This document shows, piece after piece, positions 1-64,000 of a stretch of DNA of 64,000 bases (its first letter is position 1; every line of letters begins with the position of its first letter). This DNA comes from an uncultured Gammaproteobacteria bacterium (GTDB taxonomy: Bacteria; Patescibacteriota; Patescibacteriia; UBA9570; XYC2-FULL-38-9). Below the pieces are notes generated by a model. The model ran no database searches and was not told where the DNA came from. It worked only from the letters and a program-made list of their open reading frames with translations. Location: positions 64,135-128,134 of the forward strand of contig CAZBLE010000002.1 in NCBI GenBank assembly GCA_964492735.1, given 5' to 3'. The translations under genes were made by a program, and so were the position numbers.

Positions 1-1710
1 GACGGACAATGTATAACTTCCATCTGCTGTCACACTTGTTTCTTCAACTGAACCGGTTGTTTTATTAATTGCTGTCACTGTTGCGCCATCTCCAAGTATT
101 GCATCAGAGAGTGCTGCACCAGAGGCGTCATTAATAATAGACCCGGTAATTGTTCCTTCATTACTCAGGGCAGTAATGTCTTGCGTGATTGTACTTGCTG
201 AAGTCAGTGGTACAGTTGTATCTGTTGCATAATAGCCTGCGCCTTTTTGTGTAATGAGTTGCATTGTGAGACTGGAGTCTCCATTTTTGTACGCCTTGAT
301 TGTATATGTTCCATCAGCGGCAACGGGACTGCTAAATTCATCCTTACCAGATTGCACCAATACACTTGCTGCAAGATTTTGGATCGCTGCACCAGAACTA
401 TCTCTTACTGTTCCGGTAATTGAGTAGTCTTTGCGCGTTGCAGTAATTTCTAAATTGTCAATTGTTTTGTTGTAATCAACAGTTGCTGCAGCGCTGTGTA
501 ATACAAGATGCGTTCCACTTGTAGTGTCTAAATCAATTGAGTATTCACCGCCCGCAACATTTGCAATAGTAAACGCACCGCCGGTTGTTGTGTTTCCAGT
601 GTATGTGCGTCCATTATGGATGTTTGTTGCTTTGACAGGAAGATTTGTCAGGGTGTCAGATGATTTCTCCTCAACATCTTTCGATGTGACATTGACCATT
701 TTGACCTTTCCTTTCAAAGTTGCTGTGTTGGCTTTTGCTGTTAGTGTGCCCCAATCTGTTGTTCCTGCGCCTTCTTCAACAACAAAGGTATTTTCTTTTG
801 GGTCAAAACTTTGCCCTGTAAGTTGAGGGTGGTAGGCTTCAACCGTATAAATTCCTGGAAGCAAGTAGAGTGATGCTACGCCGGTTGTTCCATTGATTTT
901 TGCTTGTGTACTCACCGGACCGTATTTGGTTAAACCAACAAAAGACACATCTCCATTAAAACTATTCAGGTTGAGAATTGCACCGTTTTTATCAACAGGT
1001 TTTACAGTGACGAGAGAGTTGCTATTCACAACATGAAATGTGACCGTTGCAGATTCTGCTGTTGTGTTTTCTGCAAAGCTCACTTCTTGTGCTGGGTCAA
1101 TATTCACCCATGGATAGCGAGTTGGATTTTGTTCACTGAGATTTCGGTCAGCTTTGACGACCCATTTTCCACCAGAGACATTCAAGGTGCCAGTGCCGTT
1201 TGTAATAGTTCCACTGGAAGAGAGTGTGCCATTTGAATTGACCGGCAGGGCTTGAATATCTGCATTGGCAACAGGTGCGCCGTTTTCATCAACCACATTG
1301 ACGTTGATTGTTTTACTGGCACCGATTAACTCAAAATTTGCTGTTTGAGTTGCAAGACCATCGGTATAGGTAAAGGAAGATCCTGTTGTTGGGCGGATGT
1401 AACCAGTTGGGAGAATGGCAGATGGGCCAATTTCAACACTAAGTTGTTGACCGATTGCTGTGGCATTGTCTCCAGAAATGGAATACACACCGCTGGCATT
1501 TGTTGTTGCATTGAATGAGACTGAACCATTGCCATTGTGGAGTTCAACCAGGACGCCAGAGGCCCCAGCACCACCTGGAAGGGTGACTGTTCCACTGACA
1601 AATGTGACGGTTGCGGCCGATGCTGGGGATACAAAAAATGCTGCAAACAGAGCAGCACTCAAGAATCCAAACAGCATGCGACGTAGTTGATTGCTCAATA
1701 CGTATTGCAT
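1..1710 (-). CDS. Secreted repetitive surface protein, 3'-truncated by the window edge. It is Thr/Gly/Ser/Asn/Val-rich and likely built from Ig-like or carboxypeptidase-regulatory-like beta-sandwich repeats.
   Basis: On the minus strand an ATG at 1710 is preceded by GAGGAG 6 nt upstream. My hand translation gives MQYVLSNQLRRMLFGFLSAALFAAFFVSPASAATVTF... (a signal peptide with an ASA cleavage site) and continues in frame to position 1. I checked the frame at 1320 and at 1650. The ORF track does not list it, probably because it has no stop inside the window. Confidence 0.55.
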   Translation of the reverse strand, partial: MQYVLSNQLRRMLFGFLSAALFAAFFVSPASAATVTFVSGTVTLPGGAGASGVLVELHNGNGSVSFNATTNASGVYSISGDNATAIGQQLSVEIGPSAILPTGYIRPTTGSSFTYTDGLATQTANFELIGASKTINVNVVDENGAPVANADIQALPVNSNGTLSSSGTITNGTGTLNVSGGKWVVKADRNLSEQNPTRYPWVNIDPAQEVSFAENTTAESATVTFHVVNSNSLVTVKPVDKNGAILNLNSFNGDVSFVGLTKYGPVSTQAKINGTTGVASLYLLPGIYTVEAYHPQLTGQSFDPKENTFVVEEGAGTTDWGTLTAKANTATLKGKVKMVNVTSKDVEEKSSDTLTNLPVKATNIHNGRTYTGNTTTGGAFTIANVAGGEYSIDLDTTSGTHLVLHSAAATVDYNKTIDNLEITATRKDYSITGTVRDSSGAAIQNLAASVLVQSGKDEFSSPVAADGTYTIKAYKNGDSSLTMQLITQKGAGYYATDTTVPLTSASTITQDITALSNEGTITGSIINDASGAALSDAILGDGATVTAINKTTGSVEETSVTADGSYTLSV

Positions 1711-1850
1711 ATATTTCTCCTCTAACTAATTATTTTATTTCACTTATTGAAAATAGTACCATATTTAGGCTTTTTGCCACAAATCCCTTGACGGATTTGT
1801 GAATTTCTCGTATGATCTGTGAGCTATTATTTTATTGAAGATGTATTTCT

Positions 1851-2321
1851 ATGTCTGAAGAAGAGAAAAAAGAAATGACCCCAGAAGCAGCTCCTGAGAC
1901 TGCTGATGTTGCTGTTGAGGCTCCAGAGGAGTCTGAAGAAGAGCGGGTTGCAAAAGAAGCAGAAGCCGCTAAACAGCAGGCTGAAGAAGAGGCTCTTGCC
2001 GCTGAAGAAGTGAAGGATGAGCAAGAACTCCGACCAGGAATGACTGTTCGTGTCCACTTTAAAATCAAAGAAGGTGAAAAAGAACGTATTCAGGTGTTTC
2101 AAGGTATGATTTTGGCACTTCGTGGCAAAACAGCGCCAACAAAAACCATGACCGTTCGTAAAGTAAGCTTTGGTATCGGTGTTGAACGTATTTTCCCACT
2201 TGCATCTCCATTGATTGAAAAGATTGAAATCGTGAAGATTGCGAAAGTGCGTCGTTCAAAATTGTTCTTCATCCGTGATTACGGAAAACGTTTGAAGGAA
2301 ACCCTCGTCAACAAACAATAG
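1851..2321 (+). CDS. rplS: 50S ribosomal protein L19, with a roughly 45-aa acidic (Glu/Ala-rich) N-terminal extension.
   Basis: The C-terminal 110 aa ([30 protein letters not shown]...[28 protein letters not shown]...[10 protein letters not shown]) matches the conserved L19 core. The N-terminus is low-complexity EEAK-rich. Confidence 0.85.
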
Positions 2322-2449
2322 ATCTTTTTATTCTATTGAACAAAAAGCTGGACTGAGTGCCAGTTTTTTGTTTTTATGTGTTATATGAAATGGACGGCTG
2401 AATTGGCATTTTAATCAGTAAATTATATGCTGATTCAACCAGTTATTAC

Positions 2450-2479
2450 TTGACAAGAAAGCAAAAAAAGATACATAAT
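2450..2479 (+). promoter_or_regulatory. Sigma70-like promoter for the tRNA-Leu/tRNA-Val unit.
   Basis: TTGACA at 2450-2455, an 18-nt spacer, then CATAAT at 2474-2479. This lies about 40 nt upstream of tRNA-Leu. Confidence 0.45.
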
Positions 2480-2519
2480 GCACTGCAACTTGAAAGAAAA
2501 ATGCATTCTGTATAGATAC

Positions 2520-5837: not shown

Positions 5838-5867
5838 TGTTATCCACTGTTTCCACTATTCAAAACC

Positions 5868-6116: not shown

Positions 6117-7727
6117 ATGTCTAATGTTGTTCGAACATTTTTTGACAAGCTATCATTTTTTACAGCAGCTGAAGCTACCGTTATCACGTTTGTTATTGCT
6201 TCATTAATTGGAGCTGGCGTGCTCTATGGTACTGAACATAATCGCTTGGTGCATGCAAAAAAGCCAATCTTACAAGAGGTGAGTGTTGAGCGTATTCATG
6301 CAACAGATGTTGACGTGCATGTTTCTGGTGAATCAAGCATACAAACACATACCTTCATCCAAGATGTTCAATATGAAGGCGAAACCTTTATTGACATGTG
6401 GTTCACTGCCGTGTCAGCATTGTGTGTCACTGGCCTTACGTCTACTGATTTTTCTGAATTTACACTCGCAGGCCAAATTGTTACGTTGGTGTTGATTCAA
6501 ATGGGTGGTTTGGGAATTATTGTGTTTACATCTTTATTCGCTTTGGCGATTGTTCGTGGACTGTCTGAGGGTGTCTCATTTCGACATTTATTATCTGGTG
6601 TTCTGGACACGGAAGACTATCATGTGTCAACGATGTTAAAGCATGTGTTCATGTACACATTTTTCTTTGAAGGCATTGCAGCAATGATTATGGGCATTCG
6701 ATTGCAATGGTTTAGCGACCCCGTACTATTACAAGGCTTAAATCCATGGTGGTGGTCGCTATTCCATTCTGTGTCTGCGTTTAATAATGCAGGCTTTGGG
6801 TTATTGAATAATAATTTAGTAAACTATGTCACTGATCCTGTGATTAATTTGACTATAGCGACATTGATTATTATCGGCGGGATCGGATATCCAGTCATGA
6901 TTGCGATTCATGCATGGCTTCGTTTAAAGGTTCGTTCTCGTAAAGATGCGACTCAAGCAACGCTTGATGCATCTGTGAGAGAAGTTATGGCATCTCCATT
7001 ACAACTACGCATCGCATTGATTGGTACCCTTCTGCTGTTGATGGTAGGTACAATTATTCCATTATTGGTTGAATGGAATAATCCTGTTATGGAAAGTCAT
7101 TCTATTCCAGAAAAAGTCTTGATTGCCTTTTTTCAAAGTACCTCAACGAGAACCGCTGGGTTTAACACAGTGGACATTGGCGTGCTTGGTGGCGCAACGT
7201 TATTGCTCTATATGATCCTAATGTTTATTGGTGCCAACCCGGCTGGTACGGGTGGTGGTATTAAAATCCCAACAATCGCAGTGCTGTATGGTTTTATGGT
7301 TGATTGGTTTAAAAAACCAGGCAGTCCAGTGACATTGTATCGATTGGTGGTGAGTAAATTTGCTGTTTCACATGCGATTCGATTACTGTTTTTCAGTTTT
7401 GTTTTTATGGGTAGTGTTTCATTTTTGATCATGGTTGCAGAATATCAATTTTTGATCACACCTGATCCAACTTTTAATTTTCTGAAGGTGATGTTTGAAA
7501 TTGTTTCGGCGTTCGGCACGGTTGGTTTATCAATGGGGTTTACTGGCAGCGTGACAAGTTTTGCTGCTGTTTTGACACCTTTTTCAAAAGTGATGTTAAT
7601 TTTGACAATGCTGTTTGGTCGGATTGGCCCACTAACCATTTTGGCGGCGTTGCCGTGGAAGCGAAAATACTTAAATCATCCACCAACGGGTGATCATGCA
7701 GATGCTCAGAAGATCCAGATTGGATAA
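6117..7727 (+). CDS. trkH: TrkH/KtrB-family cation (K+) transporter, paralog 2.
   Basis: ALCVTGLTSTDF, NNAGFGL, GGIGYPV and GTGGGIKIPT motifs. The C-terminus ends ...QKIQIG. Confidence 0.85.
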   Translation: MSNVVRTFFDKLSFFTAAEATVITFVIASLIGAGVLYGTEHNRLVHAKKPILQEVSVERIHATDVDVHVSGESSIQTHTFIQDVQYEGETFIDMWFTAVSALCVTGLTSTDFSEFTLAGQIVTLVLIQMGGLGIIVFTSLFALAIVRGLSEGVSFRHLLSGVLDTEDYHVSTMLKHVFMYTFFFEGIAAMIMGIRLQWFSDPVLLQGLNPWWWSLFHSVSAFNNAGFGLLNNNLVNYVTDPVINLTIATLIIIGGIGYPVMIAIHAWLRLKVRSRKDATQATLDASVREVMASPLQLRIALIGTLLLLMVGTIIPLLVEWNNPVMESHSIPEKVLIAFFQSTSTRTAGFNTVDIGVLGGATLLLYMILMFIGANPAGTGGGIKIPTIAVLYGFMVDWFKKPGSPVTLYRLVVSKFAVSHAIRLLFFSFVFMGSVSFLIMVAEYQFLITPDPTFNFLKVMFEIVSAFGTVGLSMGFTGSVTSFAAVLTPFSKVMLILTMLFGRIGPLTILAALPWKRKYLNHPPTGDHADAQKIQIG

Positions 7728-7895: not shown

Positions 7896-9392
7896 ATGAT
7901 TCAAAAGATGGATAAGGCGAGGTCTTGGTTTGCGGAGTGCTTTAAGCAGGTTAATTGGATGGATTGGAACATCCTCAACGTGCTAACCTTCGTCGTCGGC
8001 ACACTCTTCTTCGGGACGTTGCTGACGGTCATTGAAGGCCTGTCCATCACGGATGGAGTCTTCATGGTCACTTCGGCTCTGTGCGTCACGGGGCTCTCGA
8101 GCGTCGACTTCTCGCAGTTCACTCCGGCCGGTCAGATTCTCATTGCCCTCTGCATCCAGATGGGTGGGTTGGGAATCGTCACGTTTACTTTGCTGGCGGG
8201 CAGCTACATCGTGACTGGTTTGTCAAAGCGTGAGTCTGTTGCAGCGCTGCTGACCAGCGCTTTTGAAACGGACGACCACAAGTCTGCGCGGTACATGCTC
8301 TTCAGCGTGATCCTGCGGTATACGCTGCTTTTTGAAGGCGGCGGAACCCTGATCATGGGAGCATGGCTCCAGTGGGTCAACACCACAACCTTGTCCCCGG
8401 GCCAAAATCCGTGGACCTGGGCGTTTTTCCATTCCATTTCCGCGTTCAACAACGCAGGGTTTGGCATGGAAAGCGACAACCTGATGAAGTTCGCAGGAGA
8501 CCCGGTTATCAACGGTGTCATTGGCGGGCTGATTATCGCTGGAGGAATCGGCTACACTGTCATCCTCGCAGCTCACGTCTGGGTCCTGCGCCGTCTCGGA
8601 AACGGTGATAACTATCAGCAGCTGTTCGAGAAGCTGGTAGCTTCGCCAGTGCAGATCATCATCGCCCGGCGTGGCACGGTCCTGCTCCTTGCCGTTGGAA
8701 CTTTTGTGCCTCTCGTCATCGAGTGGAACAATCCGATGTTCAAGGACTTCAACACGTTCAGCATGCTGCTAGCAACCTGGTTCAACACCGGCGTGAGCCC
8801 GCGAACGGCAGGCTTCAACACCATTGATTTCAGCCAGTTGCATCCAACGACGCTTTGGCTAACCATTGCGTTGATGTTCATCGGCGCAAACCCTGGCGGC
8901 ACTGCGGGCGGGATCAAGATCCCGACCATGTACGTGCTGTGGGGCTACCTGCGCAACTGGCACCGTGAGCCTGGTGCGCACGTCATCGTTGCACATCACA
9001 TGGTGAGCGGGCGCACGGCCAAAAACGCCATCAACCTTTTCTTCTTCAGCGTCATTTGGGTTGGTATCGCAACCTTCCTGGTGACGGGCGCAGAAGAGTG
9101 GCGGATGGCTGAGGATCCGCGGATCAATCCGCTGGCGCTGCAATTTGAGGTCGTCAGCGCCTTCGGAACAGTTGGACTCAGCTTGGGACACCCGAGCGTC
9201 CCGTACTCGCTCTCTGGTGTGCTGTCCACCTTCAGCAAGTGGGTCATTATTCTCACCATGCTGATCGGTCGCCTCGGTCCGTTGACGTGGCTCGGGCTCT
9301 GGCCGTGGCCGCACAATGAGACAGCAGAGGGTGAAGATGCAGATCTCGATCCCGAAGCTCCTCGTGAGCCGGAGAAGCTGCAGATCGGCTGA
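7896..9392 (+). CDS. trkH: TrkH/KtrB-family cation (K+) transporter, paralog 3. It is GC-rich and probably a xenolog.
   Basis: About 50% identical to paralog 2 (ALCVTGLSSVDF, NNAGFGM, GGIGYTV, TAGGIKIPT), and it shares the C-terminal ...EKLQIG. The coding GC is visibly ~60%, against ~40% in the flanks. ATG 7896 is preceded by GGAGA. The ORF-track start at 7884 is a TTG. Confidence 0.85.
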   Translation: MIQKMDKARSWFAECFKQVNWMDWNILNVLTFVVGTLFFGTLLTVIEGLSITDGVFMVTSALCVTGLSSVDFSQFTPAGQILIALCIQMGGLGIVTFTLLAGSYIVTGLSKRESVAALLTSAFETDDHKSARYMLFSVILRYTLLFEGGGTLIMGAWLQWVNTTTLSPGQNPWTWAFFHSISAFNNAGFGMESDNLMKFAGDPVINGVIGGLIIAGGIGYTVILAAHVWVLRRLGNGDNYQQLFEKLVASPVQIIIARRGTVLLLAVGTFVPLVIEWNNPMFKDFNTFSMLLATWFNTGVSPRTAGFNTIDFSQLHPTTLWLTIALMFIGANPGGTAGGIKIPTMYVLWGYLRNWHREPGAHVIVAHHMVSGRTAKNAINLFFFSVIWVGIATFLVTGAEEWRMAEDPRINPLALQFEVVSAFGTVGLSLGHPSVPYSLSGVLSTFSKWVIILTMLIGRLGPLTWLGLWPWPHNETAEGEDADLDPEAPREPEKLQIG

Positions 9393-28123: not shown

Positions 28124-28211
28124 AGATGCAGAATGTAGCCCGCGTAGTATAAAACCGACTTGCACTTCTGTCAATCCTGCTGTAGGCTAGCGGCGCACAA
28201 GGAGGTGCATC

Positions 28212-28307
28212 ATGAGATTGTGTAACGCCGCACGTTTTGCGGCTATCCTCGCGATTTTGGGGGCGATTCGGATCGCCTCCCGGCTTGACGAGACATTTAG
28301 AGGCTAA
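28212..28307 (+). CDS. Candidate 31-aa hydrophobic peptide (MRLCNAARFAAILAILGAIRIASRLDETFRG) with a perfect SD. Possibly a type-I-toxin-like or small membrane protein.
   Basis: AAGGAGGT at 28199-28206 lies 5 nt upstream of the ATG. It has its own candidate promoter (TTGCAC-17-TAGGCT, 28160-28188) and its own terminator. It sits in a GC-rich islet right beside tRNA-Glu. Confidence 0.3.
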   Translation: MRLCNAARFAAILAILGAIRIASRLDETFRG

Positions 28308-28339
28308 CCATGGCCCCTTGTGTCTCGTCGCTCGTTTTT
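28287..28339 (+). terminator. Hairpin plus T-run terminator that encloses the stop codon of the 31-codon ORF.
   Basis: GACGAGACA (28287-28295) pairs with TGTCTCGTC (28321-28329), then GCTCGTTTTTC. Confidence 0.45.
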
Positions 28340-28419
28340 CCTTATAAAATCCACCTCTTGAAAAGAGCCTTCGATTGTGCTATACTCTTGGTCTAAATCT
28401 AATACTATTCATTTTATTT

Positions 28420-29256: not shown

Positions 29257-30297
29257 ATGGAATCAGTATTGATTCTCGGAATTGAAAGCTCGTTCGACGA
29301 CACCGGTGTGTCAGTTGTGCGAGCTTTTTCTGATGGGCAATTTGAGATTCTTTCAAATGAGCTGGCACTGCAAGACCATGTGAAAACTGGTGGTGCTGTG
29401 CCAGAGCTCGCAGCGCGGCGTCATGGAGAGAATATTGTGCCGACGATCCAACGTGCCTTGTCGGAAGCTGCTGCAGCGCCCGCGGATATTGATGTGATTG
29501 CAGTGACAACGACTCCTGGAATGATTGCCTGTTTGCAAGTCGGTATTGAAACGGCTAGAACACTGGCGGTGAGTTGGAGCAAGCCATTGATTGGCGTGCA
29601 TCACATGAAGGCGCATATTGCGAGTACATTCGCGGAACACCCGCACGTCGCATTTCCAGCAGTGGTGTTGCTTGCGAGTGGTGCGCATACGATGTTGGTC
29701 AGAATGGATTCAGCAGAGCAGTATGTGCTGCTTGGGCAAACACGCGATGATGCGGCAGGAGAAGCGTTTGATAAAATTGCACGAATGCTCGGACTGCCAT
29801 ATCCAGGTGGCCCAGAAATTGCGCGTATTGCAGAGGGTGGCGATGCTACGGCCTTTGCTTTTCCACGGCCAATGCTTCGTGAGTCAGGATTTGAGTTTTC
29901 ATTTGCGGGCTTAAAAACCGCTATTTTATATACTATTCGTGATCTCGGTGGTATTGATGCATTAACAGAACAGCAGCGCGCTGATCTCGCAGCAAGCGCA
30001 CAGCAGGCGATTATTGACGTGCTTGTGCAAAAAACCATACGAGCAGTCAAACAAGAGCATGCACAGACAGTGATTCTCGGGGGAGGAGTGTCAGCAAATG
30101 TTGCGCTGCGTGGCCAATTAGAAACAGCTGTTGCTGGAGTAGGTCAGGATTGTGTATTGATTGTACCGTCTCCTGGATTATTTACAGATAACGGCGCGAT
30201 GATTGCAATTGCGGCAGCTTCACGCGCATTGCGAAAAGAATATGATGATCCATTTTCATTGACCCCAGCAGCACGTACGCCGATTGATCAGGGGTGA
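29257..30297 (+). CDS. tsaD: tRNA N6-adenosine threonylcarbamoyltransferase TsaD (Kae1/YgjD family).
   Basis: LILGIESSFDDTGVSVV... at the N-terminus, a metal-binding HxxxH region (HHMKAHIAS) and the conserved C-terminal ...GGGVSANVALR. Confidence 0.9.
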   Translation: MESVLILGIESSFDDTGVSVVRAFSDGQFEILSNELALQDHVKTGGAVPELAARRHGENIVPTIQRALSEAAAAPADIDVIAVTTTPGMIACLQVGIETARTLAVSWSKPLIGVHHMKAHIASTFAEHPHVAFPAVVLLASGAHTMLVRMDSAEQYVLLGQTRDDAAGEAFDKIARMLGLPYPGGPEIARIAEGGDATAFAFPRPMLRESGFEFSFAGLKTAILYTIRDLGGIDALTEQQRADLAASAQQAIIDVLVQKTIRAVKQEHAQTVILGGGVSANVALRGQLETAVAGVGQDCVLIVPSPGLFTDNGAMIAIAAASRALRKEYDDPFSLTPAARTPIDQG

Positions 30298-31807: not shown

Positions 31808-31865
31808 ATGGCACTAGTATACACCTCTGAAAACTATGCGCAATAGGTGATTGTAGGTGTAGATG

Positions 31866-31914
31866 CAAAAAGACCCCGAACCCCTGCGCGCAAATTGCTG
31901 ACAGGTGTTCGAGG
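31866..31914 (-). terminator. Intrinsic terminator of the 74-aa GC-rich gene.
   Basis: On the minus strand: stem CCTCGAACACCTG/CAGGGGTTCGGGG, then TCTTTTTGC. Confidence 0.5.
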
Positions 31915-31947
31915 CTTTTCCTTCGGCGGCGTGGCCGTCTCGTCCCT

Positions 31948-32172
31948 TCAGGGAACGTAGACGACCTCGACCAGGGCGTCATCCCGCAGCATCTGCTGCG
32001 GCTCTTGTGTCAGGGTCGCAACCCAAGCGCCTTGTCCGCTTTCTTCCATGGTGCAAGGGCTTCCTGCCCCGTTTATGAACTTATAGACTCCAGGCTTTCC
32101 GCTCCGGAAGCGGAAGACCTCCCCGTCCTTCAGGTCTCCGATGTTCGGGCAAACTCTATGCAGGGCCTTCAT
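31948..32172 (-). CDS. Hypothetical 74-aa protein encoded in a GC-rich islet.
   Basis: GGAGG sits 4 nt upstream of ATG 32172. It has its own terminator. The codon usage is GC-rich and unlike its neighbours. The sequence is MKALHRVCPNIGDLKDGEVFRFRSGKPGVYKFINGAGSPCTMEESGQGAWVATLTQEPQQMLRDDALVEVVYVP. Confidence 0.45.
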   Translation of the reverse strand: MKALHRVCPNIGDLKDGEVFRFRSGKPGVYKFINGAGSPCTMEESGQGAWVATLTQEPQQMLRDDALVEVVYVP

Positions 32173-32303
32173 CTTTCCTCCAGCGGTGATGAGCCTAAAA
32201 AAACCCTACAGATTCGCAATAAAAAATGCAAGGACGAGCGCCTCATTTTATTGACCAAGGGTGCTTCCTCAGGTACAGTACAAGGGTCATTTTAGATAAA
32301 AAT

Positions 32304-50340: not shown

Positions 50341-50491
50341 ATATTGATATGAGGCGTGAAGGTACAAAAATTTTGAGGAGGATATTTGTATCAGGTATAT
50401 TGTTTATCAAATAAGAAAGGGAACCAGCACGCCGACCCAACTCTGCTCAGTGAGGGAGGGTGGTCCTTGTGCTGGTTGGCGCGTTTATCTG

Positions 50492-51011
50492 TCAGGTCGC
50501 CGCGCGGTAGGTCGTTGCGCTGGGGCGGATGCAGAGCCAGTCATCGGGGTAGATCAGGTCGTCGTCAGTAAGGTTCGTCACAACGAACCCGGAGTTGATG
50601 ACGACCACATCATCGCCGTAGCGCTGCTTGAGCTCTTTCACCGTCCAACCAGCTTCTTCGCTGGCGATGGTGATCTGTGCGGCTCGGGGGTAGCGGAAGG
50701 TGATCCGCAGTCCAGCAGGGAGGGGGGTATCTCGGTTGAGGTCTTCGATGAGCTCGAGACCTTCGCCATCCGCGATTGCCAAGCCACGAATGTCTGCGAG
50801 GTCTTCTGCTTCCACGAGCTCCTCGAGAAGTTGACCGAGAGTCTGTCCCTCAAAGGTCTCTCCCGTTGCGATGCGGCCCCCGGCGCTCACCATCCGTCCC
50901 GTTCCCAGGACGATGTAGTTGCAGCCGCCGAGCTGCGTCATCGTGGCTGCCGCGAACATCGCACCAAGCCTAGTTAACAATCCTCTGCGTGTCAGGCTCA
51001 TAGGAGCGCCT
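50492..51011 (-). CDS. Twin-arginine (Tat) signal lipoprotein, hypothetical. GC-rich.
   Basis: AGGAGG lies 7 nt upstream of ATG 51011. MSLTRRGLLTRLGAMFAAATMTQLGGC gives an RR motif plus an LGGC lipobox. The C-terminal half is beta-grasp-like. Confidence 0.5.
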
Positions 51012-51413
51012 CCTGGTTTGTTTGCTCCGAAGATTTGTCGATGCGGCGCCATCAACAAATTTTGGCAACAAAAAAACCGGGCACAGCCGGAATATCAAAA
51101 ATATTCACATACGCTGTTTCCACTCCACGAGAAACGTCAGAAAAATCTTTGAACTGGACCTGGCTTATTCGCTCTTCCAGAGAAGGCGACATGACAGTTG
51201 CGGGTCAGCGCTGGGAATCACACCCAGACTTCCGTTGCAAAGAAGGTGACAAACTTCGAACAAAGAACGATAGTACAAGCACTATAACATAGTTTTTCAA
51301 TTACTACATCTAGTGTTATCCACAGAGAATAGGCACTATAGAGCGGATTTATTAATGAACGCCATTTTTTAGCAAAAAAATATGAAGAAGGGAATATGGT
51401 CATTGCTCCACTG

Positions 51414-52193
51414 TCAGTGAATGTGACCTTCTTCCTCTTCTTCATACACACGACCACTGTGGTCCGTGTGGTCGTGGTGCGCACCCGGCTTTACAATGTG
51501 ATGGTCAAAGCCGGCACGGAACTGGACCCCGAGGCTGCCGCACTTGCTCTGGCACCAGTCAGTGCCAGTAAAGCCTGCATGTGAACTCATGAGCATGAGC
51601 TCGTAGATTCCGCGGCTCATGTGTCCGGTTTCAAGGCGTAGCACGAGACCGATGTTTAGCTCAGCATAACTGACGCCGAAGAAGCTACTTGAGTGAGCCT
51701 CTGGTACAAATGCCGGTGCCCATTCAATCCGCGCACCAATGCCAAAGCTGCGGCGAGTCTCAATATGAGGCACAACTGTCAGCGCGATTTGCGCATCTTC
51801 AGCGTCCGCGTGGACCTCTAAGTCACCGTAGAGTCGGAAGTTGCCGCCTGGCAAGCCCCAGCGCGTGTCAATGACACCGCCGCCAGAGATTGCGACCCCA
51901 TTTTGTTCAAGATGCAGACCGAGAGCTGGCCCGATGTCAACTTCAAACCACTGGCCATTTTCTGTGTGGCCGTGGATGTCGAGGCCAGCGTGGCAATCTC
52001 CATGCCCAAGCAAAGTCCCATCAGAACTGGTGATACCAGATCCAACAAGGCCGCCGTGGCAGCCAATCGAAAAGGCAATGGGGATTTTCCCTTCTGCCTC
52101 ATGTGCATGCTCATCTTCTTCCGCGACTGCTTTCGCAAGCGGAAAAAAGAGCACGAAGAAAGAGCAGATAAACAACCGGACAATTGAACGCAT
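51414..52193 (-). CDS. Secreted His-rich (putative metal-binding) protein. GC-rich.
   Basis: A signal peptide. His clusters at both ends (EEDEHAHEAEG...; ...GAHHDHTDHSGRVYEEEEEGHIH) and many internal His/Asp residues. Its promoter shares the znuA operator. Confidence 0.5.
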   Translation of the reverse strand: MRSIVRLFICSFFVLFFPLAKAVAEEDEHAHEAEGKIPIAFSIGCHGGLVGSGITSSDGTLLGHGDCHAGLDIHGHTENGQWFEVDIGPALGLHLEQNGVAISGGGVIDTRWGLPGGNFRLYGDLEVHADAEDAQIALTVVPHIETRRSFGIGARIEWAPAFVPEAHSSSFFGVSYAELNIGLVLRLETGHMSRGIYELMLMSSHAGFTGTDWCQSKCGSLGVQFRAGFDHHIVKPGAHHDHTDHSGRVYEEEEEGHIH

Positions 52194-52265
52194 GGGAAGC
52201 CTCTATGGAAAGGGTGTTTTTTGCAAAGAACAAATGATTGATACAGCGACACAACAAGCGGCCGT

Positions 52266-58280: not shown

Positions 58281-58432
58281 AAGAAAATGATATATTGATT
58301 AATACCTCAAAGAATAGCAGATATGGGATTTTTCTGAAAGTGAAATGGTGTGTAGAAACAACAAAACCTCGGTCTGCATACAGCGAGCTGTAGCGTTCCG
58401 AGGATTTTCTCCTCTTGAGAGCACCGGTCGGA

Positions 58433-58705
58433 TCAGGACCGGCTCAATCGCCTCACGGCGATGATGCGCACGGCGTTCCGTGCGGCTCGGAGGGCGGCGA
58501 CGGTCTGATTGACCTCGCCGTCACCCCAGGGAAGGAGGCTAATGCCAATGGCACCGGCCTCACAGGTGCAAAGCGTGGCCAGAAGGCCGGCCACGCCACC
58601 GTTGTCGGGACAGGACGCCCAGAGCGCGAGGGCGCTCAGGACGGCCATCGTACAGAGGTTCCGGAGCCGCAGGAGCGGGTCCGGAGGACACAACCACTTC
58701 ATCAT
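58433..58705 (-). CDS. Hypothetical 90-aa Cys-containing small membrane protein encoded in a GC-rich islet.
   Basis: AGGAGGA lies 4 nt upstream of ATG 58705. The sequence is MMKWLCPPDPLLRLRNLCTMAVLSALALWASCPDNGGVAGLLATLCTCEAGAIGISLLPWGDGEVNQTVAALRAARNAVRIIAVRRLSRS. Confidence 0.4.
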   Translation of the reverse strand: MMKWLCPPDPLLRLRNLCTMAVLSALALWASCPDNGGVAGLLATLCTCEAGAIGISLLPWGDGEVNQTVAALRAARNAVRIIAVRRLSRS

Positions 58706-58896
58706 GGCGTCCTCCTCTTGCACTGCCAGGCGGCAGCGCCAGTGCCGAGGGATTCGGCAACTGCAGACTGCTGAGGACTCCATCCATCAGACTGCAATTT
58801 CCGATCCAGCATGCCATTAAGGGGCGTGTATATTGCACACCTTATACGCGAATATTCAGTATTTGTCTAGTACCCCTTGTGGAGAGCTCTGCCGAT

Positions 58897-59178
58897 TTAT
58901 TCAGTTCGTTGTATCAGTGTTATTGTTCCATTATCACTAATGAAATTATCAAGCACAGGAATATCGGCGGCAGATCGAATTGTCCAGTTTAAGAAGGTGA
59001 TAAGAAGAGCGGCGATAATTGATGCGCCGACTGCATATCCAGCACCTTTTCCAATTGAAATAACAACATTCCATTTAAACGAAATTTGCTTTTCAATTTT
59101 TTTGTCGAGTTCATGAATTCGCTGAGAGAGCTGCTGTAGTTCATGTTCGAGTTCTTGTTCTTTTTTTATTTGTACCAT
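58897..59178 (-). CDS. Small coiled-coil plus TM hypothetical protein.
   Basis: MVQIKKEQELEHELQQLSQRIHELDKKIEKQ, then a TM helix. Native AT-rich codon usage. Confidence 0.35.
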   Translation of the reverse strand: MVQIKKEQELEHELQQLSQRIHELDKKIEKQISFKWNVVISIGKGAGYAVGASIIAALLITFLNWTIRSAADIPVLDNFISDNGTITLIQRTE

Positions 59179-59328
59179 ACGGAAAGTATAGAACAATTTG
59201 TATCAAATAGACAAAGTGCGGAGTGGTCAGTTCCGCCTGCGATTCGACTTCGGGGTGTTGTGTGAAGTGAGTCGCTTTTTTGACCGGTGGTGGTTGGCAC
59301 GGTGACGGCAGACTCCAGTACCCTAGGT

Positions 59329-59982
59329 TCAGCCGTTGAGACCGTGCACCGTGCGGAACGCCGGAAGAGTGCACAGGTGCTCGTACACTCCCCAGATCTT
59401 CGGCCACTTCTCCGAGACGGGGAGGCTGAAGCGGCTGATCGCCGCCCAGACCTCGGTGCCGAGGGTGATGTCGGCGAGCGTCAAGCGCTCGCCAACGCAG
59501 AAGTCTGGGTCGCTCTGGTGGAGCTTGAGCATCCTCTCGAGGGCGTCGAAGGCACGCCCTACCCAGAAGATCGACCAGCCGTTGGTCTCGGCCCTGCTGG
59601 TGTAGTGAGCTTCCTGCATCAGCCGCAGGAGCGGCTGGCGGTTGCCGAGCGGCCTCAGGTCCGAGTCCAGGAGCCGCATGATCTCCCGAACCCGGAAGCG
59701 CTCGAGTGTGCCTTCGCCCAGCAGCTGTGCCTTAGGACACAGCTCGGCGAAGTACTCCATGATTGCCCCACTTTGAGTGAGGACATCCTCCACCTTGCCG
59801 TGACCCGTCAGGTCGAGGGCAGGGACACGCTGGTTCGGGTTAATCGCCGTGAAGGCGCTCCCGAACTGCTCTTCTGCGGCCAGGTTGACTTCGATCAGTG
59901 TGTAGTTGATTCTGAGGAGGGCAAGGACGACGCGCACGGGCTTTGGGCCCCGTGCCGCTTCGCATGAATAGAGTTTCATCAT
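59329..59982 (-). CDS. Glutathione S-transferase (zeta/maleylacetoacetate-isomerase-like). GC-rich.
   Basis: GGAGG lies 6 nt upstream of the ATG. KLYSCEAARGPKPVRVVLAL...NPNQRVPAL...QSGAIMEYF gives the N-terminal thioredoxin-like GST domain plus a C-terminal helical domain. Confidence 0.7.
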   Translation of the reverse strand: MMKLYSCEAARGPKPVRVVLALLRINYTLIEVNLAAEEQFGSAFTAINPNQRVPALDLTGHGKVEDVLTQSGAIMEYFAELCPKAQLLGEGTLERFRVREIMRLLDSDLRPLGNRQPLLRLMQEAHYTSRAETNGWSIFWVGRAFDALERMLKLHQSDPDFCVGERLTLADITLGTEVWAAISRFSLPVSEKWPKIWGVYEHLCTLPAFRTVHGLNG

Positions 59983-60099
59983 GCACAACCTCCATGGTTG
60001 AGTGCAGAATTACCCTAAGCCGTCTCAGATATTTGGTCAACTGATGTATACGGAGTTTTTTAGCAAGCCGAGCGCACTATATGTGCTATACTATTTTTT

Positions 60100-62378: not shown

Positions 62379-62714
62379 ATGGTTACAACAAATACAGGAT
62401 TACAATATGAAGATGTCACAGTAGGTGACGGAGCAGAAGCGACAAAAGGCGCAATGGTATCAGTGCATTACACTGGAACATTGGAAGACGGAACGCAATT
62501 TGACAGTTCACGTTCACGTGGACCATTTGAGTTCGCGCTTGGCGGCGGCATGGTAATCGCTGGGTGGGATGAAGGTGTCCAAGGAATGAAAGTTGGCGGA
62601 ACACGAACATTGGTGATCCCATCAGACTTAGCATATGGTCCAATGGGAATTCCAGGTGCGATTCCAGGTGGCGCAACATTGCATTTTGATGTTGAATTGC
62701 TCGCAGTGAAATAA
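62379..62714 (+). CDS. FKBP-type peptidyl-prolyl cis-trans isomerase.
   Basis: GLQYEDVTVGDGAEATKGAMVSVHYTGTLEDGTQFDSS...GWDEGVQGMKVGGTRTLVIPSDLAYG is the canonical FKBP domain. Confidence 0.9.
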   Translation: MVTTNTGLQYEDVTVGDGAEATKGAMVSVHYTGTLEDGTQFDSSRSRGPFEFALGGGMVIAGWDEGVQGMKVGGTRTLVIPSDLAYGPMGIPGAIPGGATLHFDVELLAVK

Positions 62715-62730
62715 CGGCAAGAGGATTATA

Positions 62731-62761
62731 AAAAAGGTGGCGTGTGAGCCGCCTTTTTTTT
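62731..62761 (+). terminator. Intrinsic terminator after the FKBP gene.
   Basis: AAAAAGGTGGCGTGTGAGCCGCCTTTTTTTT. Confidence 0.7.
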
Positions 62762-62824
62762 GTAGTCATATACTACTGACATATGATAGACTAAATACAA
62801 TCTTTCAAATTCAAATATATCTTT

Positions 62825-64000
62825 ATGCTGAAAATATTTTATGCTAGTGCGCTGTCGTTGCTGTTATTCCTGGTAGTAGGGTTTACTCCGGCAATTGCGC
62901 ATGCAGAGAGTTATACGGTAACAACACTTGATGACGAACTAGATGGTTCACCAGTGTGTACAACAGGCAGTTCAACCGATTGTTCCTTGCGCGAAGCAGT
63001 CACTGCTGCGAATAGTGGGGGAGAAGATACGATTGTCATACCAGCGAATACCTATCAAATTACTCGCACTGGGGCTGGAGAAGATAGCGGTAGTACTGGT
63101 GATTTTGATCTTACAGATACGGATAGGACAACGATTACAGGCGCTGACATGTCGACAACAATTATTGATCAGGATGATGTGAGTCCTGTTGATCGCGCGT
63201 TTCATATTACAACAGGTGCAGTAGTGACGATGTCAGGCCTCACAGTGAACGATAGTAAGGTAACAAGTGAAAATGGAGGCGGTATATTAAATGAAGGATC
63301 GCTTACAATGTCATATGTGACTGTCCAAAATAGTGCTCTTAATAATCCAAGTGGAATTATTGCCCAGTACGGAGCGGGTATTTATTGCGGAGCAGGTGAT
63401 ATGACATTGACAAATGTTGTGGTGAGTGGAAACGCATCGGCTGATCCAGCAACCCAAGCAGTATTTGGTGGTGGGATTGGAGTTTCAGGAGATTGTAATT
63501 CTGATATCAGTCGTACGACAATTTCTGGTAATTCAGCCGGGACTGGTGGTGGTGTATTTATTGATACAAATACCACAACAACAAACACACTGACTGACGT
63601 TGAATTTACAAACAATACAGCCGCTTCAGACGCGGGTGGTGGTCTTGCTGGTTCTGGACCGGAAGGGAATAATCCAATTGTGATGAATCGGGTGACGTTT
63701 ATTGAAAATACCGCGATTTCTGGTGGTGGTATTTTTACCAGCACTCCGATGCAGATTACAAATGGTACGTTTTACAACAATACAGCGTCTGACACAGGCG
63801 GCGCGATGAATGCAAACGCAGGAGATACTCCAGCAATCACTATTGCATTTTCAACTTTTACGAATAATAATGCGAGCATTGCGGCAGGTATCTACAGCGG
63901 CGGCGCAAGTAACGTAGTGTTGAAAAATAACATTATTGCATCCAATTTTGTTGCGCCAATGCCAGCGCCTTTTTACGAAGATTGCCAAGGAAATTTTACG
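62825..64000 (+). CDS. Secreted parallel beta-helix repeat protein with an N-terminal CSLREA motif. 3'-truncated by the window edge.
   Basis: ATG 62825. Signal peptide MLKIFYASALSLLLFLVVGFTPAIAHA. The sequence ...DCSLREAVTAANSGGEDTIVIPANTYQI... followed by Gly/Asn/Thr-rich repeats (NNTAASDAGGG..., ISGGGIF...) is typical of right-handed beta-helix adhesin/lyase-like proteins. I checked the frame at two points. The ORF track omits it because it has no stop in the window. Confidence 0.55.
   Translation, partial: MLKIFYASALSLLLFLVVGFTPAIAHAESYTVTTLDDELDGSPVCTTGSSTDCSLREAVTAANSGGEDTIVIPANTYQITRTGAGEDSGSTGDFDLTDTDRTTITGADMSTTIIDQDDVSPVDRAFHITTGAVVTMSGLTVNDSKVTSENGGGILNEGSLTMSYVTVQNSALNNPSGIIAQYGAGIYCGAGDMTLTNVVVSGNASADPATQAVFGGGIGVSGDCNSDISRTTISGNSAGTGGGVFIDTNTTTTNTLTDVEFTNNTAASDAGGGLAGSGPEGNNPIVMNRVTFIENTAISGGGIFTSTPMQITNGTFYNNTASDTGGAMNANAGDTPAITIAFSTFTNNNASIAAGIYSGGASNVVLKNNIIASNFVAPMPAPFYEDCQGNFT

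What the first reader, a model, noticed from the sequence alone, without database searches (positions are those of the whole stretch)
1..64000. A mosaic genome: at least seven short GC-rich islets with strong Shine-Dalgarno sites set in an AT-rich backbone whose genes mostly lack an SD.
Islets by eye: 7880-9480 (trkH-3), 20755-20877 (hairpin cluster), 28130-28340, 31850-32230, 50400-52340, 58380-58860 and 59215-60010. tsaD (29257-30297) also looks moderately GC-elevated. Every gene in an islet has an AGGAGG-class SD 4-7 nt from the start. Native starts (valS, ruvB, pilB, queA, atpA, tsaD) show none. This difference in translation-initiation signal points to a foreign, high-GC, SD-using donor and repeated small-scale acquisition. 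No integrase or transposase is present, so the mechanism is unclear. One islet abuts tRNA-Glu.
Basis: seen in the sequence. Interest (0 to 1): 0.65.

Follow-up and report, generated by a model that had tools for sequence, protein, structure and literature searches.

The report
GC-rich single-gene islets, Patescibacteria chromosome
Seven short GC-rich genes with classical ribosome-binding sites sit in an AT-rich chromosome of an uncultured ultra-small (CPR) bacterium whose own genes have none; they are real, and relatives have GC-rich islets at the five of these loci that could be checked, yet several have very divergent coding parts and none has lost its GC-richness, which "recently imported foreign DNA" does not explain.

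Summary
Seven single-gene islets (54-62% GC, GC3 0.56-0.82) lie in a 42% GC backbone (GC3 0.36 +/- 0.045). Six of seven islet genes reach an anti-SD pairing of -6 kcal/mol or better, against 3 of 55 backbone genes. Many backbone genes look leaderless. Two items in the finding are wrong: 20755-20877 is one long terminator hairpin, and tsaD is native (GC3 0.39).

The islets are not assembly chimeras, because other assemblies reproduce the junctions. They are not recent arrivals either. Relatives whose backbone synonymous sites are near saturation (K4 0.5-1.4) carry GC-rich, SD-bearing islets at the five of these loci that held contigs reach.

Leaders, SDs and terminators are highly conserved, but the coding parts are unusually divergent or swapped: GST 39% aa, the 169-aa protein 36%, one slot with unrelated cassettes, and a TrkH allele tree that contradicts the backbone tree. 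No outside donor appeared in billions of proteins.

Third-position substitutions in TrkH-3 favour GC (equilibrium GC3 about 0.64, against 0.34 in flanking genes).

Best reading: these are old, moron-like, foreign-type transcription units whose alleles turn over by recombination, and whose GC-richness is being maintained. How it is maintained is unresolved.

The parts
7896..9392 (+). Islet 1: TrkH-3, a 498-aa K+ transporter. It is GC-rich from about 7957 to 9504 (57% GC, GC3 0.72). The SD is weak (GGAG, within the 7885-7898 start region). The first ~60 nt of the ORF are AT-rich. Terminator hairpins lie at about 9400-9497.
   Evidence: - Pfam TrkH, E = 1e-53.
- 46% aa identity to the adjacent AT-rich TrkH-2.
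- It branches outside the TrkH clade that holds TrkH-2.
- It occupies the same locus in L163 (94% aa) and L171 (92%). In L165 the allele is 56% aa identical with GC3 0.87.
28153..28347 (+). Islet 2: AAGGAGG at 28199-28205, then a 31-aa hydrophobic peptide ORF at 28212-28307 (MRLCNAARFAAILAILGAIRIASRLDETFRG). A terminator hairpin at 28287-28329 overlaps the end of the ORF. The islet lies 30 nt from the 5' end of tRNA-Glu (28049-28123, minus strand).
   Evidence: - Sequence and translation.
- ORF length, hydrophobic pattern, SD and hairpin are kept in L168 and L169. The peptide is only 52-55% identical, and the stem shows compensatory changes.
31836..32210 (-). Islet 3: GGAGG inside 32173-32182, a 74-aa ORF at 31948-32172, and a terminator. 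It lies between a BlaI-like repressor gene and an HD-domain gene.
   Evidence: -. No family match.
- Relative L170 has conserved flanks here but an unrelated GC-rich cassette with its own AAGGAGG (BLASTP E = 1.1).
50402..51136 (-). Islet 4: a 169-aa protein ORF at 50492-51001 with a twin-arginine signal and a lipobox-like LGGC. AGGAGG lies inside 51002-51015. The conserved leader carries a palindrome at 51033-51062. The terminator is at about 50402-50491. GC3 is 0.71.
   Evidence: -.
- Only two full-length family members among 1.84e9 representatives.
- The orthologue in L172 is at the syntenic place. The 135 nt upstream are about 96% identical, but the protein is 36-37% identical.
51390..52204 (-). 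Islet 5: a 259-aa His-rich, beta-rich protein with a signal peptide (ORF 51414-52193). The SD is weak (GAGG inside 52194-52204). GC3 is 0.56. The part encoding the signal peptide is AT-rich.
   Evidence: -.
- No family or viral match.
- It is alone in its 90% cluster and absent from the syntenic region of L172.
- The AF2 model is unusable (pLDDT 40).
58355..58869 (-). Islet 6: a promoter-like TAGACA-17-TATAAG at 58841-58869, a ~135-nt structured leader, AGGAGG inside 58706-58718, and a 90-aa membrane-protein ORF at 58433-58705. GC is 62% and GC3 is 0.80.
   Evidence: -.
- Orthologues in L164 (59-60% aa at 80% nt) and L172 (54% aa over the aligned 59 of 90 residues), with GC3 0.76-0.78.
- The leader is more conserved than the CDS. 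In the predicted fold, its second hairpin pairs CCUC with the GAGG of the SD.
59207..60040 (-). Islet 7: a promoter-like TTGACC-17-TAGGGT at 60012-60040, GGAGG inside 59983-59994, a zeta-class-like glutathione S-transferase ORF at 59329-59979 (216 aa), and a conserved GC-rich 3' region at 59207-59328. GC is 61% and GC3 is 0.82.
   Evidence: - Pfam GST_N and GST_C. The NCBIfam maiA match is below its cut-off.
- An independent ENA contig, L161, is 99.9% identical across both junctions.
- Relative L164 has a GC-rich GST at the same place. Its flanks are about 96-98% identical in 50-nt windows, but the CDS is 39% aa identical.
20755..20877 (.). Not an islet: a single extended hairpin with a flanking A-run and T-run, between convergent genes (V/A-ATPase subunit D and queA). 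It is a bidirectional intrinsic terminator.
   Evidence: Fold dG -52.2 kcal/mol, z = -5.8 against shuffles. Sequence. Neighbouring genes.
29257..30297 (+). Not an islet: tsaD, a native gene. Its raised GC comes from codon positions 1 and 2.
   Evidence: GC1 0.65, GC2 0.47, GC3 0.39, no SD. Pfam TsaD.
6117..7727 (+). Context: AT-rich TrkH-2, the paralogue next to TrkH-3 (GC3 0.36). Window 5820-7758 is missing from relative L163, which keeps only TrkH-3 at this place.

Best explanation
**What the islets are.** The backbone is a Patescibacteria (CPR) chromosome. Its genes start without an SD, and many have a TATACT box 6-13 nt before the ATG, so they are probably leaderless. Scattered in its intergenic spaces are self-contained single-gene transcription units. 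Each has its own promoter, a leader, a GC-rich ORF and a terminator. Five have a strong AGGAGG-type SD and two a weak one, and some leaders are structured.

**Origin (inferred).** These look like foreign-type genes added one at a time, moron-like, by illegitimate recombination in a competent cell. This happened before the sampled relatives diverged. It was not recent.

**What has happened since (shown by identity patterns).** Each locus, with its leader, SD and terminator, is inherited and strongly conserved. The coding part behaves as a replaceable or fast-evolving module.
- Alleles move between lineages by homologous recombination. The breakpoints lie at or inside the gene ends.
- Very divergent alleles occupy the same slot in close relatives, and at one slot the cassettes are unrelated.

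**GC-richness.** It is being maintained rather than decaying. Either a GC-rich allele pool keeps re-supplying the loci, or fixation in these highly recombining genes is biased towards GC (gene conversion or selection on the mRNA). Which force acts is not resolved.

**Function (inferred).** The islets add envelope, transport and detoxification accessory proteins, translated through an SD route that the core genome does not use.
For: **Reality of the junctions**
- L161 (ENA, 99.9% identical) and L162 (Logan, 100%) span islet-backbone junctions.
- Relatives carry the same junctions.

**Backbone identity and translation signals**
- The source-named RuvB hits, at 62-70% identity, are all Patescibacteria.
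- SD and composition contrast. The syntenic relative L172 shows the same contrast.

**Age of the islets**
- The loci are GC-rich in genomes with backbone K4 of 0.5-1.4 from the window.

**Conserved regulatory shell around a divergent core**
- GST: flanks about 96-98% identical, CDS 39% aa.
- 169-aa gene: 135-nt leader about 96% identical, protein 36-37%.
- 90-aa gene: leader conserved and structured, CDS 54-60% aa.
- 31.9k slot: unrelated cassettes.

**Recombination**
- At IF-2B, L163 and L165 are 94% identical to each other and 83% to the window.
- In TrkH-3 the pattern reverses. Window and L163 are 91% identical and L165 is 61% to both. Identity jumps from about 60% to 97% roughly 15 nt before the stop codon.
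- TrkH-3 is a mosaic: 75-83% identity in 7900-8297 and mostly 85-97% (60-nt windows 78-98%) in 8298-9270 among window, L163 and L171.

**GC is maintained**
- Polarised third-position changes in TrkH-3 are AT>GC 0.446 and GC>AT 0.246 per site, giving an equilibrium GC3 of 0.64 (current 0.73).
- The flanking IF-2B and 276-aa genes give an equilibrium of 0.34.
- Fisher p = 5e-4 for AT sites and 5e-12 for GC sites.

**No mobile-element signatures**. **No phage link**.
Against: - No donor or outside gene pool was found. The GST, TrkH-3 and 169-aa families have no close outside relatives in 5.8e9 and 1.84e9 proteins. Foreign origin therefore rests on composition and SD alone.
- If the alleles have lived only in these AT-biased genomes, an extra force is needed to keep GC3 at 0.6-0.87. 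That force is not demonstrated.
- Some AT-rich backbone genes are equally divergent between the window and L172 (ZnuA 42%, a 403-aa protein 48%). Fast divergence is therefore not exclusive to islets.
- Promoters, transcription starts and leaderless status are read from sequence only.
- Polarisation used parsimony on three sequences at high divergence. The known bias runs against the result, but the numbers are rough.
- Only one islet (TrkH-3) had enough lineages for that test.
- Islet 5 (259 aa) has no relative at all, so its age is unknown.
Confidence: 0.5

Rival explanations
1. One reading: recent, repeated single-gene imports from a high-GC, SD-using donor, such as the host cell of this episymbiont. 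Each islet would be a fresh acquisition that is still un-ameliorated.
For: - GC3 0.56-0.82, GC-type codon choice and strong SDs.
- The L165 TrkH-3 allele has GC3 0.87 and differs sharply from the allele in its close relative L163.
- Unrelated cassettes occupy the 31.9k slot.
- Islet 5 is unique to this genome.
- Published work reports HGT in Patescibacteria covering up to 13% of genome length (PMC12455944).
Against: - Islets occupy identical loci, with near-identical leaders and SDs, in relatives whose synonymous sites are near saturation.
- No donor-like homologue was found.
- Independent imports could not keep the same leader, start codons and terminator while changing only the ORF.
Confidence: 0.15
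2. In-situ origin. The islet genes are native, or anciently resident, lineage-specific genes that a local process has driven GC-rich and fast-evolving. Candidates are GC-biased gene conversion at recombination hot spots, selection for GC-rich structured mRNAs tied to SD-dependent initiation, or a targeted mutational process.
For: - The families are endemic to this lineage.
- Orthologous loci stay GC-rich across saturated divergence.
- The substitution pattern in TrkH-3 is shifted about 3.6-fold towards GC relative to flanking genes.
- There is direct evidence of extra recombination in the islets.
- The GC-rich domain coincides with the transcription unit.
- TrkH-3's amino-acid composition is close to backbone composition (GARP 0.25 against 0.24), so its GC excess is concentrated at synonymous positions (GC3 0.72 against 0.36), with smaller rises at positions 1 and 2.
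Against: - It does not explain why these genes alone carry canonical SDs and leaders.
- The GC boundaries are sharp, within tens of nt, whereas conversion tracts should blur them.
- To my knowledge no bacterial precedent exists for a GC3 shift this large from biased conversion.
- TrkH-3 branches outside the clade containing TrkH-2, so it is not a recent duplicate.
- The non-homologous cassettes at 31.9k require replacement, not divergence.
Confidence: 0.28
3. Artefact: chimeric assembly or binning that mixed reads from a GC-rich organism into an AT-rich contig.
For: All data come from short-read metagenome assemblies. Contigs of relatives (L166, L167) break exactly at one islet edge.
Against: - Each islet is a tidy intergenic insertion with backbone on both sides.
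- Junctions are reproduced in ENA, Logan, JGI and NCBI assemblies from different samples, and in relatives 15-25% diverged.
- Leaders run continuously from AT-rich into GC-rich sequence and are conserved.
Confidence: 0.02

Closest known systems
Phage 'morons' (single genes with their own promoter and terminator, inserted between two genes of a lambdoid phage, with atypical base composition). Described from my own knowledge (Hendrix, Juhala and colleagues, about 2000).
   Same: - One ORF per insertion, placed in an intergenic space.
- Its own promoter-like site, SD and terminator.
- Composition clearly different from the neighbours.
- No recombinase or repeats at the ends.
   Different: - The host is a cellular chromosome, not a phage or prophage. 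There are no phage genes nearby and no viral homologues.
- The islets are conserved at fixed loci across a bacterial clade.
- Their ORFs are swapped or hyperdivergent.
Classical horizontally acquired genomic islands or islets
   Same: Atypical GC, codon usage and translation signals, and accessory-type functions: a transporter, GST, secreted and membrane proteins.
   Different: - No integrase, transposase, direct repeats or insertion at a tRNA 3' end.
- Single genes of 0.2-1.5 kb.
- Present in all relatives that could be checked.
- No identifiable donor.
- No sign of amelioration in the one islet that could be tested.
Replacement-type flexible genomic islands, such as O-antigen or glycosylation loci: same locus, conserved flanks, deeply divergent or non-homologous content, persistently atypical GC. 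From my own knowledge (Rodriguez-Valera, Lopez-Perez and colleagues; the enterobacterial O-antigen literature).
   Same: - Conserved flanks with very divergent or unrelated content at the same slot in close relatives.
- An allele tree that disagrees with the backbone tree.
- Atypical composition that persists.
- A bias towards envelope proteins.
   Different: - Single small genes rather than multi-gene clusters.
- The composition deviates upward, not downward.
- The replaced unit is often just the ORF, inside a conserved leader and terminator.
GC-biased gene conversion as a driver of local GC content (reported for recombining bacterial genes; from my own knowledge, Lassalle et al. 2015)
   Same: Elevated GC3 coincides with evidence of extra recombination, and the substitution pattern is shifted towards GC.
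   Different: The size of the effect (GC3 0.36 to 0.7-0.87) and the sharp gene-sized boundaries go far beyond what has been described. Bias in fixation was not measured here.

Membership tests
Classical genomic island / islet (HGT) | Base composition and codon usage atypical for the genome | tested here: met
   GC 54-62% against 42.3%. GC3 0.56-0.82 against 0.362 +/- 0.045.
Classical genomic island / islet (HGT) | Mobility genes (integrase or transposase) or flanking direct repeats / att sites | tested here: not met
   No such Pfam domain in any ORF of 80 aa or more that was scanned; valS was not scanned. No flanking or shared repeats.
Classical genomic island / islet (HGT) | Sporadic presence among close relatives (recent gain) | tested here: not met
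   Five of seven loci could be checked in relatives and all five are occupied by a GC-rich islet there. A sixth (the 169-aa gene) is present in the more distant L172. Only the 259-aa gene is absent from L172.
Classical genomic island / islet (HGT) | Closest homologues in a different, identifiable taxon (donor) | tested here: not met
   GST best outside hit 34%. TrkH-3 best 46-49%, in the same TrkH clade as the native TrkH-2. The 169-aa family is confined to this lineage.
Phage moron | Single ORF with its own promoter and terminator, inserted between two genes, with deviant composition | tested here: met
   Promoter-like hexamers, SD, ORF and hairpin terminators were read from the sequence and are conserved in relatives. 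Transcription itself was not measured.
Phage moron | Resides in a phage or prophage genome | tested here: not met
   The neighbours are housekeeping genes: valS, ruvB, V/A-ATPase, L19 and tRNAs. No viral relatives.
Integron gene cassette | attC recombination site at the cassette end and an IntI integrase nearby, with cassettes in an array | tested here: not met
   No shared end motif or imperfect inverted repeat common to the islets. They are dispersed rather than arrayed. No integrase.
Replacement flexible genomic island | Same chromosomal slot, conserved flanks, deeply divergent or non-homologous content between close relatives | tested here: met
   GST (39% aa inside flanks about 96-98% identical), TrkH-3 in L165 against L163 (61% nt inside about 97% flanks), and unrelated cassettes at the 31.9k slot.
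Replacement flexible genomic island | Multi-gene cluster for an exposed cell-surface structure | tested here: not met
   Each islet holds a single gene. The functions are mixed: TrkH, GST, a lipoprotein, and small membrane proteins.
Diversity-generating retroelement target | Reverse transcriptase plus a template repeat matching a variable region, with adenine-specific changes | tested here: not met
   No RT domain and no TR/VR-like repeat in the window. Divergence spans whole ORFs. The rest of the genome was not available.
Structured non-coding RNA gene (the usual cause of GC peaks in AT-rich genomes) | Match to a known RNA family, or no conserved ORF | tested here: not met
   Rfam finds only the 4 tRNAs. 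In TrkH-3 the changes cluster at third codon positions (44/56, 66/90, 82/117). Small ORFs keep their length and pattern across relatives.

The most novel reading that the evidence does not exclude
An AT-rich, SD-less, largely leaderless Patescibacteria lineage keeps a second, endemic class of genes. These genes are GC-rich, have leaders and depend on an SD. A gene-specific bias in fixation towards GC holds them at a different compositional equilibrium. The bias could be biased gene conversion at recombination hot spots, or selection on the mRNA. It would also speed up their protein evolution. On this reading the 'foreign look' is produced and maintained inside the lineage rather than imported.
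Probability: 0.25. Interest if true: 0.85.

Novelty: new variant of a known kind. Interest (0 to 1): 0.62.

Why it matters
- **Detecting gene transfer.** Atypical GC plus foreign-type translation signals is the textbook signature of recent horizontal transfer. Here the signature sits on loci that are old and fixed in position, and on three gene families that have no close relatives outside this Patescibacteria lineage. Methods that rely on composition would misdate or misattribute these genes.
- **What sets GC content.** If the GC-richness is maintained in place, this is a compact natural test of what sets base composition in bacteria: biased gene conversion or selection against AT-biased mutation. 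AT-rich flanking genes a few nucleotides away serve as internal controls.
- **Two routes to translation.** The data suggest two initiation regimes in one small genome, leaderless or SD-less core genes alongside SD-led accessory genes. This bears on reports that many Parcubacteria lack the anti-SD (PMC9297842).
- **Candidate host-interaction genes.** Fast-diverging envelope and secreted proteins behind conserved, structured leaders are candidates for host interaction in episymbiotic ultra-small bacteria.

Tried and rejected
- **Exact look-ups** of two window proteins with guessed start codons found nothing. Later look-ups through cluster members worked.
- **The single metagenome scan**, with the metallophosphoesterase as query, gave only hits of 36% identity or less (apart from a few short partial matches up to 42%) and no useful context.
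- **The genome scan**, with the photolyase as query, gave one short close relative, L001, which stops short of the islets. L001 is labelled Bdellovibrionales. The RuvB hits point instead to Patescibacteria, so the label looks wrong.
- **A known RNA family behind the GC peaks**: rejected.
- **Phage origin**: three viral-contig scans and PHROGs found nothing useful.
- **Shared end motifs, att sites, target duplications or DGR-type repeats**: none.
- **The promoter and terminator scanner** found no more sites than in shuffled sequence.
- **Function of the orphan proteins**:
  - Pfam, NCBIfam and PHROGs gave nothing for the 31-, 90-, 169- and 259-aa proteins, and only a chance-level PHROG match (E = 0.019) for the 74-aa protein.
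  - AlphaFold models had pLDDT 40 and 48, too poor for fold search, so none was run.
  - The C-terminus of the 169-aa protein weakly resembles LysM repeats (E = 2e-5 to a LysM-repeat protein). It does not reach Pfam's LysM model.
- **TrkH-3 as a recent GC-shifted duplicate of TrkH-2**: rejected, because TrkH-3 branches outside the clade that holds TrkH-2.
- **Simple amelioration**: rejected. With backbone W/S differences of about 0.4 per four-fold site, an islet present in the common ancestor and evolving like the backbone would have needed an ancestral GC4 above 1 to reach today's 0.68-0.86 (my calculation).

Full report

The window is 43.5% GC. A 100-nt scan and a 400-nt profile pick out seven segments at 54-62% GC: 7957-9504, 28153-28347, 31836-32210, 50402-51050, 51390-52146, 58355-58837 and 59207-60031. 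The remainder is 42.3% GC, and its 400-nt windows average 0.424 with SD 0.035.

Each segment holds exactly one plausible gene:
- TrkH-3 (498 aa);
- a 31-aa hydrophobic peptide;
- a 74-aa protein;
- a 169-aa protein with a twin-arginine signal and a lipobox-like motif;
- a 259-aa His-rich secreted protein;
- a 90-aa membrane protein;
- a zeta-like glutathione S-transferase (GST).

Their GC3 is 0.56-0.82. For 32 backbone genes it is 0.362 +/- 0.045 with a maximum of 0.50, and the islets' codon choice shifts to C- and G-ending codons.

I scored pairing of the 20 nt before each start codon with a generic anti-SD sequence. Islet genes have a median of -10 kcal/mol, and 6 of 7 reach -6 or better. 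The 55 backbone genes have a median of +0.2, and 3 of 55 reach -6, all three with the motif about 13-21 nt from the start (Mann-Whitney p = 1.6e-5). Many backbone starts have a TATACT box 6-13 nt upstream, which suggests leaderless mRNAs.

The finding needs these corrections:
- 20755-20877 is not an islet. It is one extended hairpin (dG -52 kcal/mol, z = -5.8) between convergent genes, which makes it a bidirectional terminator.
- tsaD has backbone-like GC3 (0.39), so it is native.
- 50400-52340 is two islets.
- The SD is weak for TrkH-3 and for the 259-aa gene.
- The islet beside tRNA-Glu lies at the 5' side of the tRNA gene.
- Rfam finds only four tRNAs, so the GC peaks are not known RNA genes.

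**2. What is the genome, and are the junctions real?**

The backbone genes include a V/A-type ATPase operon, an IF-2B-family protein, PilB, VanW, queA, tsaD, ruvB, L19, YidC, ZnuA and Fur, and a photolyase. Pfam found no integrase or transposase in any scanned ORF of 80 aa or more. The source-named RuvB hits, at 62-70% identity, are all Patescibacteria: Kerfeld-, Falkow- and Komeilibacteria.

The window belongs to a 132-kb NCBI contig. Two other assemblies span islet-backbone junctions:
- an ENA contig, 99.9% identical to window 58492-60113;
- a Logan contig, 100% identical to window 6822-11905.

A chimeric assembly is therefore very unlikely.

**3. The islets are old and fixed in position.**

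Cluster members of window proteins led to contigs of relatives:
- Lake Mendota contigs L163, L164, L166 and L168;
- GCA_964608475.1 (L165);
- L169, L170 and L171;
- a more distant syntenic relative, L172, from a 168-kb contig.

Backbone proteins are mostly 75-96% identical to the window's. Backbone four-fold sites differ by K4 of about 0.5-1.4, which is near saturation.

Wherever a relative's contig reaches an islet locus, a GC-rich, SD-bearing islet is there:
- TrkH-3 in L163, L165 and L171;
- the 31-aa peptide in L168 and L169;
- the 31.9k slot in L170;
- the 90-aa gene in L164 and L172;
- GST in L164;
- the 169-aa gene in L172.

L172's own genes also lack an SD, except for its islet gene.

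**4. A conserved shell around an unstable core.**

The regulatory parts of the islets are among the best-conserved sequences in the region.
- GST: the promoter-like site, leader, GGAGG and first codons, and the roughly 115-nt 3' region, are about 96-98% identical in 50-nt windows between the window and L164. The ORF between them is about 50% identical in nucleotides and 39% in amino acids.
- 169-aa gene: the 135 nt upstream are about 96% identical to L172. They include a palindrome and CCAGGAGG. The proteins are 36-37% identical.
- 90-aa gene: the leader is more conserved than the ORF (54-60% aa). It folds into two hairpins with compensatory changes, and the second hairpin pairs with the SD.
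- 31.9k slot: the window and L170 share flanks but carry unrelated GC-rich cassettes, each with its own AGGAGG.

Some AT-rich backbone genes are also very divergent in L172 (ZnuA 42%), so fast divergence is not unique to the islets.

**5. Alleles move by recombination.**

At IF-2B, L163 and L165 are 94% identical to each other and 83% identical to the window. In the adjoining TrkH-3 the pattern reverses: the window and L163 are 91% identical, and L165 is 61% identical to both. L165's allele has GC3 of 0.87. Between L163 and L165, identity jumps from about 60% to 95-100% roughly 15 nt before the stop codon.

Among the window, L163 and L171 the gene is a mosaic. Identity is 75-83% in the first 400 nt and mostly 85-97% (60-nt windows 78-98%) in 8298-9270. 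Four-fold divergence in TrkH-3 (0.45) is lower than in the flanking genes (1.1-1.2).

L163 lacks the AT-rich paralogue TrkH-2 altogether. Contigs of two relatives end exactly at an islet edge, as expected if strains differ there.

**6. No donor.**

- The best outside hit for GST is 34% identical.
- TrkH-3's best outside hits are 46-49% identical. They belong to the TrkH clade that contains the native TrkH-2. The TrkH-3 alleles form their own long-branched clade outside it, so TrkH-3 is neither a recent duplicate nor close to any sampled lineage.
- A full HMMER pass over 1.84 billion representatives found only two full-length members of the 169-aa family. Both lie in this lineage at the syntenic place.
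- Viral scans and PHROGs gave nothing useful.

**7. The GC-richness is not decaying.**

I polarised substitutions using three TrkH-3 sequences.
- Changes cluster at third codon positions, so the protein is under purifying selection.
- At third positions, AT>GC runs at 0.446 per AT site and GC>AT at 0.246 per GC site. This implies an equilibrium GC3 of 0.64, against a current 0.73.
- The same method gives an equilibrium of 0.34 for two flanking native genes, whose current GC3 is 0.32-0.39.
- Both halves of TrkH-3 behave alike, and the contrasts with the backbone are significant (p = 5e-4 and 5e-12).

Parsimony's known bias in skewed sequences inflates common-to-rare changes. That bias works against this result (my own knowledge).

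A two-state calculation points the same way. Backbone lineages differ in AT/GC class at about 0.4 of four-fold sites, so only about 40% of any ancestral GC excess should survive in each lineage. Today's GC4 of 0.68-0.86 would then require an ancestral value above 1. So either the ORFs were renewed after the lineages split, or they evolve under a regime that favours GC.

**8. Interpretation.**

Shown:
- The compositional and SD contrast is real.
- The loci are inherited at fixed positions, with conserved leaders and terminators.
- The ORFs are unusually divergent or swapped.
- The recombination breakpoints are visible.
- No mobility genes and no donor were found.
- The substitution pattern in TrkH-3 favours GC.

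Inferred: the islets began as moron-like single-gene additions of foreign type, before these lineages diverged. Their ORFs now turn over by homologous recombination through the conserved shell. Their GC-richness is kept up either by a GC-rich allele pool or by GC-biased fixation.

I give this composite about 0.5. A purely in-situ origin gets about 0.28, recent repeated import about 0.15, and artefact about 0.02.

Published work fits the setting. HGT, mostly between Patescibacteria, has been reported to cover up to 13% of genome length (PMC12455944). About half of Parcubacteria appear to lack the anti-SD motif (PMC9297842). The strong conservation of AGGAGG in the islet leaders across relatives suggests that this lineage's ribosome can still use it, but the 16S rRNA was not available to check.

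**9. Comparison with known systems, and novelty.**

- In architecture the islets match phage morons, but they sit in a cellular chromosome.
- In population behaviour they resemble replacement-type flexible islands such as O-antigen loci, but at single-gene scale and with GC shifted upward.
- They fail the defining tests for classical mobile islands, integron cassettes, DGR targets and RNA genes (see the membership table).

I class the finding as a new variant of a known kind. What is new is the combination of four things: foreign-type signals, ancient fixed loci, ORF-only turnover, and GC-richness that does not ameliorate.

Noticed in passing
window 58706-58869 (minus strand); L164 4790-4924; L172 5660-5793: The ~135-nt leader of the 90-aa islet gene is more conserved than its ORF. 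It folds into two hairpins, with 5 compensatory pairs among 3 sequences. The second hairpin pairs CCUC with the GAGG of the SD. This is a candidate SD-sequestering regulatory leader with no Rfam match.
   Followed up: partly
window 51002-51136 (minus strand); L172 9870-10000: The 135 nt upstream of the 169-aa gene are about 96% identical to a distant relative, although the proteins are 36-37% identical. The stretch contains the palindrome AAATTTGTTGATG-GCGCCG-CATCGACAAAT, which looks like an operator. Regulator genes lie beside it: TrmB in the window, Fur in L172.
   Followed up: partly
window-wide, e.g. upstream of 31807, 39183, 41699, 41728, 60100: Backbone genes have no SD and often carry TATACT 6-13 nt before the ATG. 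This implies leaderless or near-leaderless mRNAs as the default in this Patescibacteria lineage.
   Followed up: partly
window 5820-7758; 55877-57218; L164 4162-4818; L172 against window 44850-46226 and 49062-50340: AT-rich genes also come and go between relatives:
- TrkH-2 is absent from L163.
- PadR plus a 287-aa gene are absent from L001.
- A DM13-domain gene is present only in L164.
- GCS2, TrmB and a 129-aa gene are absent from the L172 region.

Gene flux is therefore not limited to the GC-rich class.
   Followed up: partly
window 28212-28329; L168 ~6380-6520; L169 ~124-260: The 31-aa hydrophobic peptide beside tRNA-Glu keeps its length and pattern in three lineages, although the sequences are 52-55% identical. 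The terminator hairpin that overlaps its 3' end shows compensatory changes. It could be a small membrane peptide or a toxin-like gene.
   Followed up: partly
L166 and L167 ends = window 50347-50353: Contigs from two different samples stop exactly at the edge of islet 4. This suggests assembly-graph branching caused by strain-level differences in islet content.
   Followed up: no
L163 1-900: The Lake Mendota relative has a further GC-rich segment (60-63% GC) encoding an inositol-monophosphatase-family protein at the contig end. It has no counterpart in the window, so relatives carry islets of their own.
   Followed up: no
window 44850-46226, 61199-62293, 59329-59979: A glutamate-cysteine-ligase-family gene and a RimK/glutathione-synthase-like ATP-grasp gene lie in the backbone, the latter about 1.2 kb from the GST islet (a metallophosphoesterase gene lies between them). 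The GST may therefore have a native thiol partner.
   Followed up: no
L001 (JBIIKE010000073.1): The closest genome-collection relative is deposited as 'Bdellovibrionales bacterium'. Its backbone is about 80% identical in DNA to this Patescibacteria-like window, so the label looks like a taxonomic or binning error.
   Followed up: partly
window 50495-50700 (C-terminal half of the 169-aa protein): There is weak similarity (phmmer E = 2e-5) to LysM repeats of a GH25 muramidase-like protein, but no Pfam LysM hit. This may be a degenerate peptidoglycan-binding module on a fast-diverging lipoprotein.
   Followed up: partly
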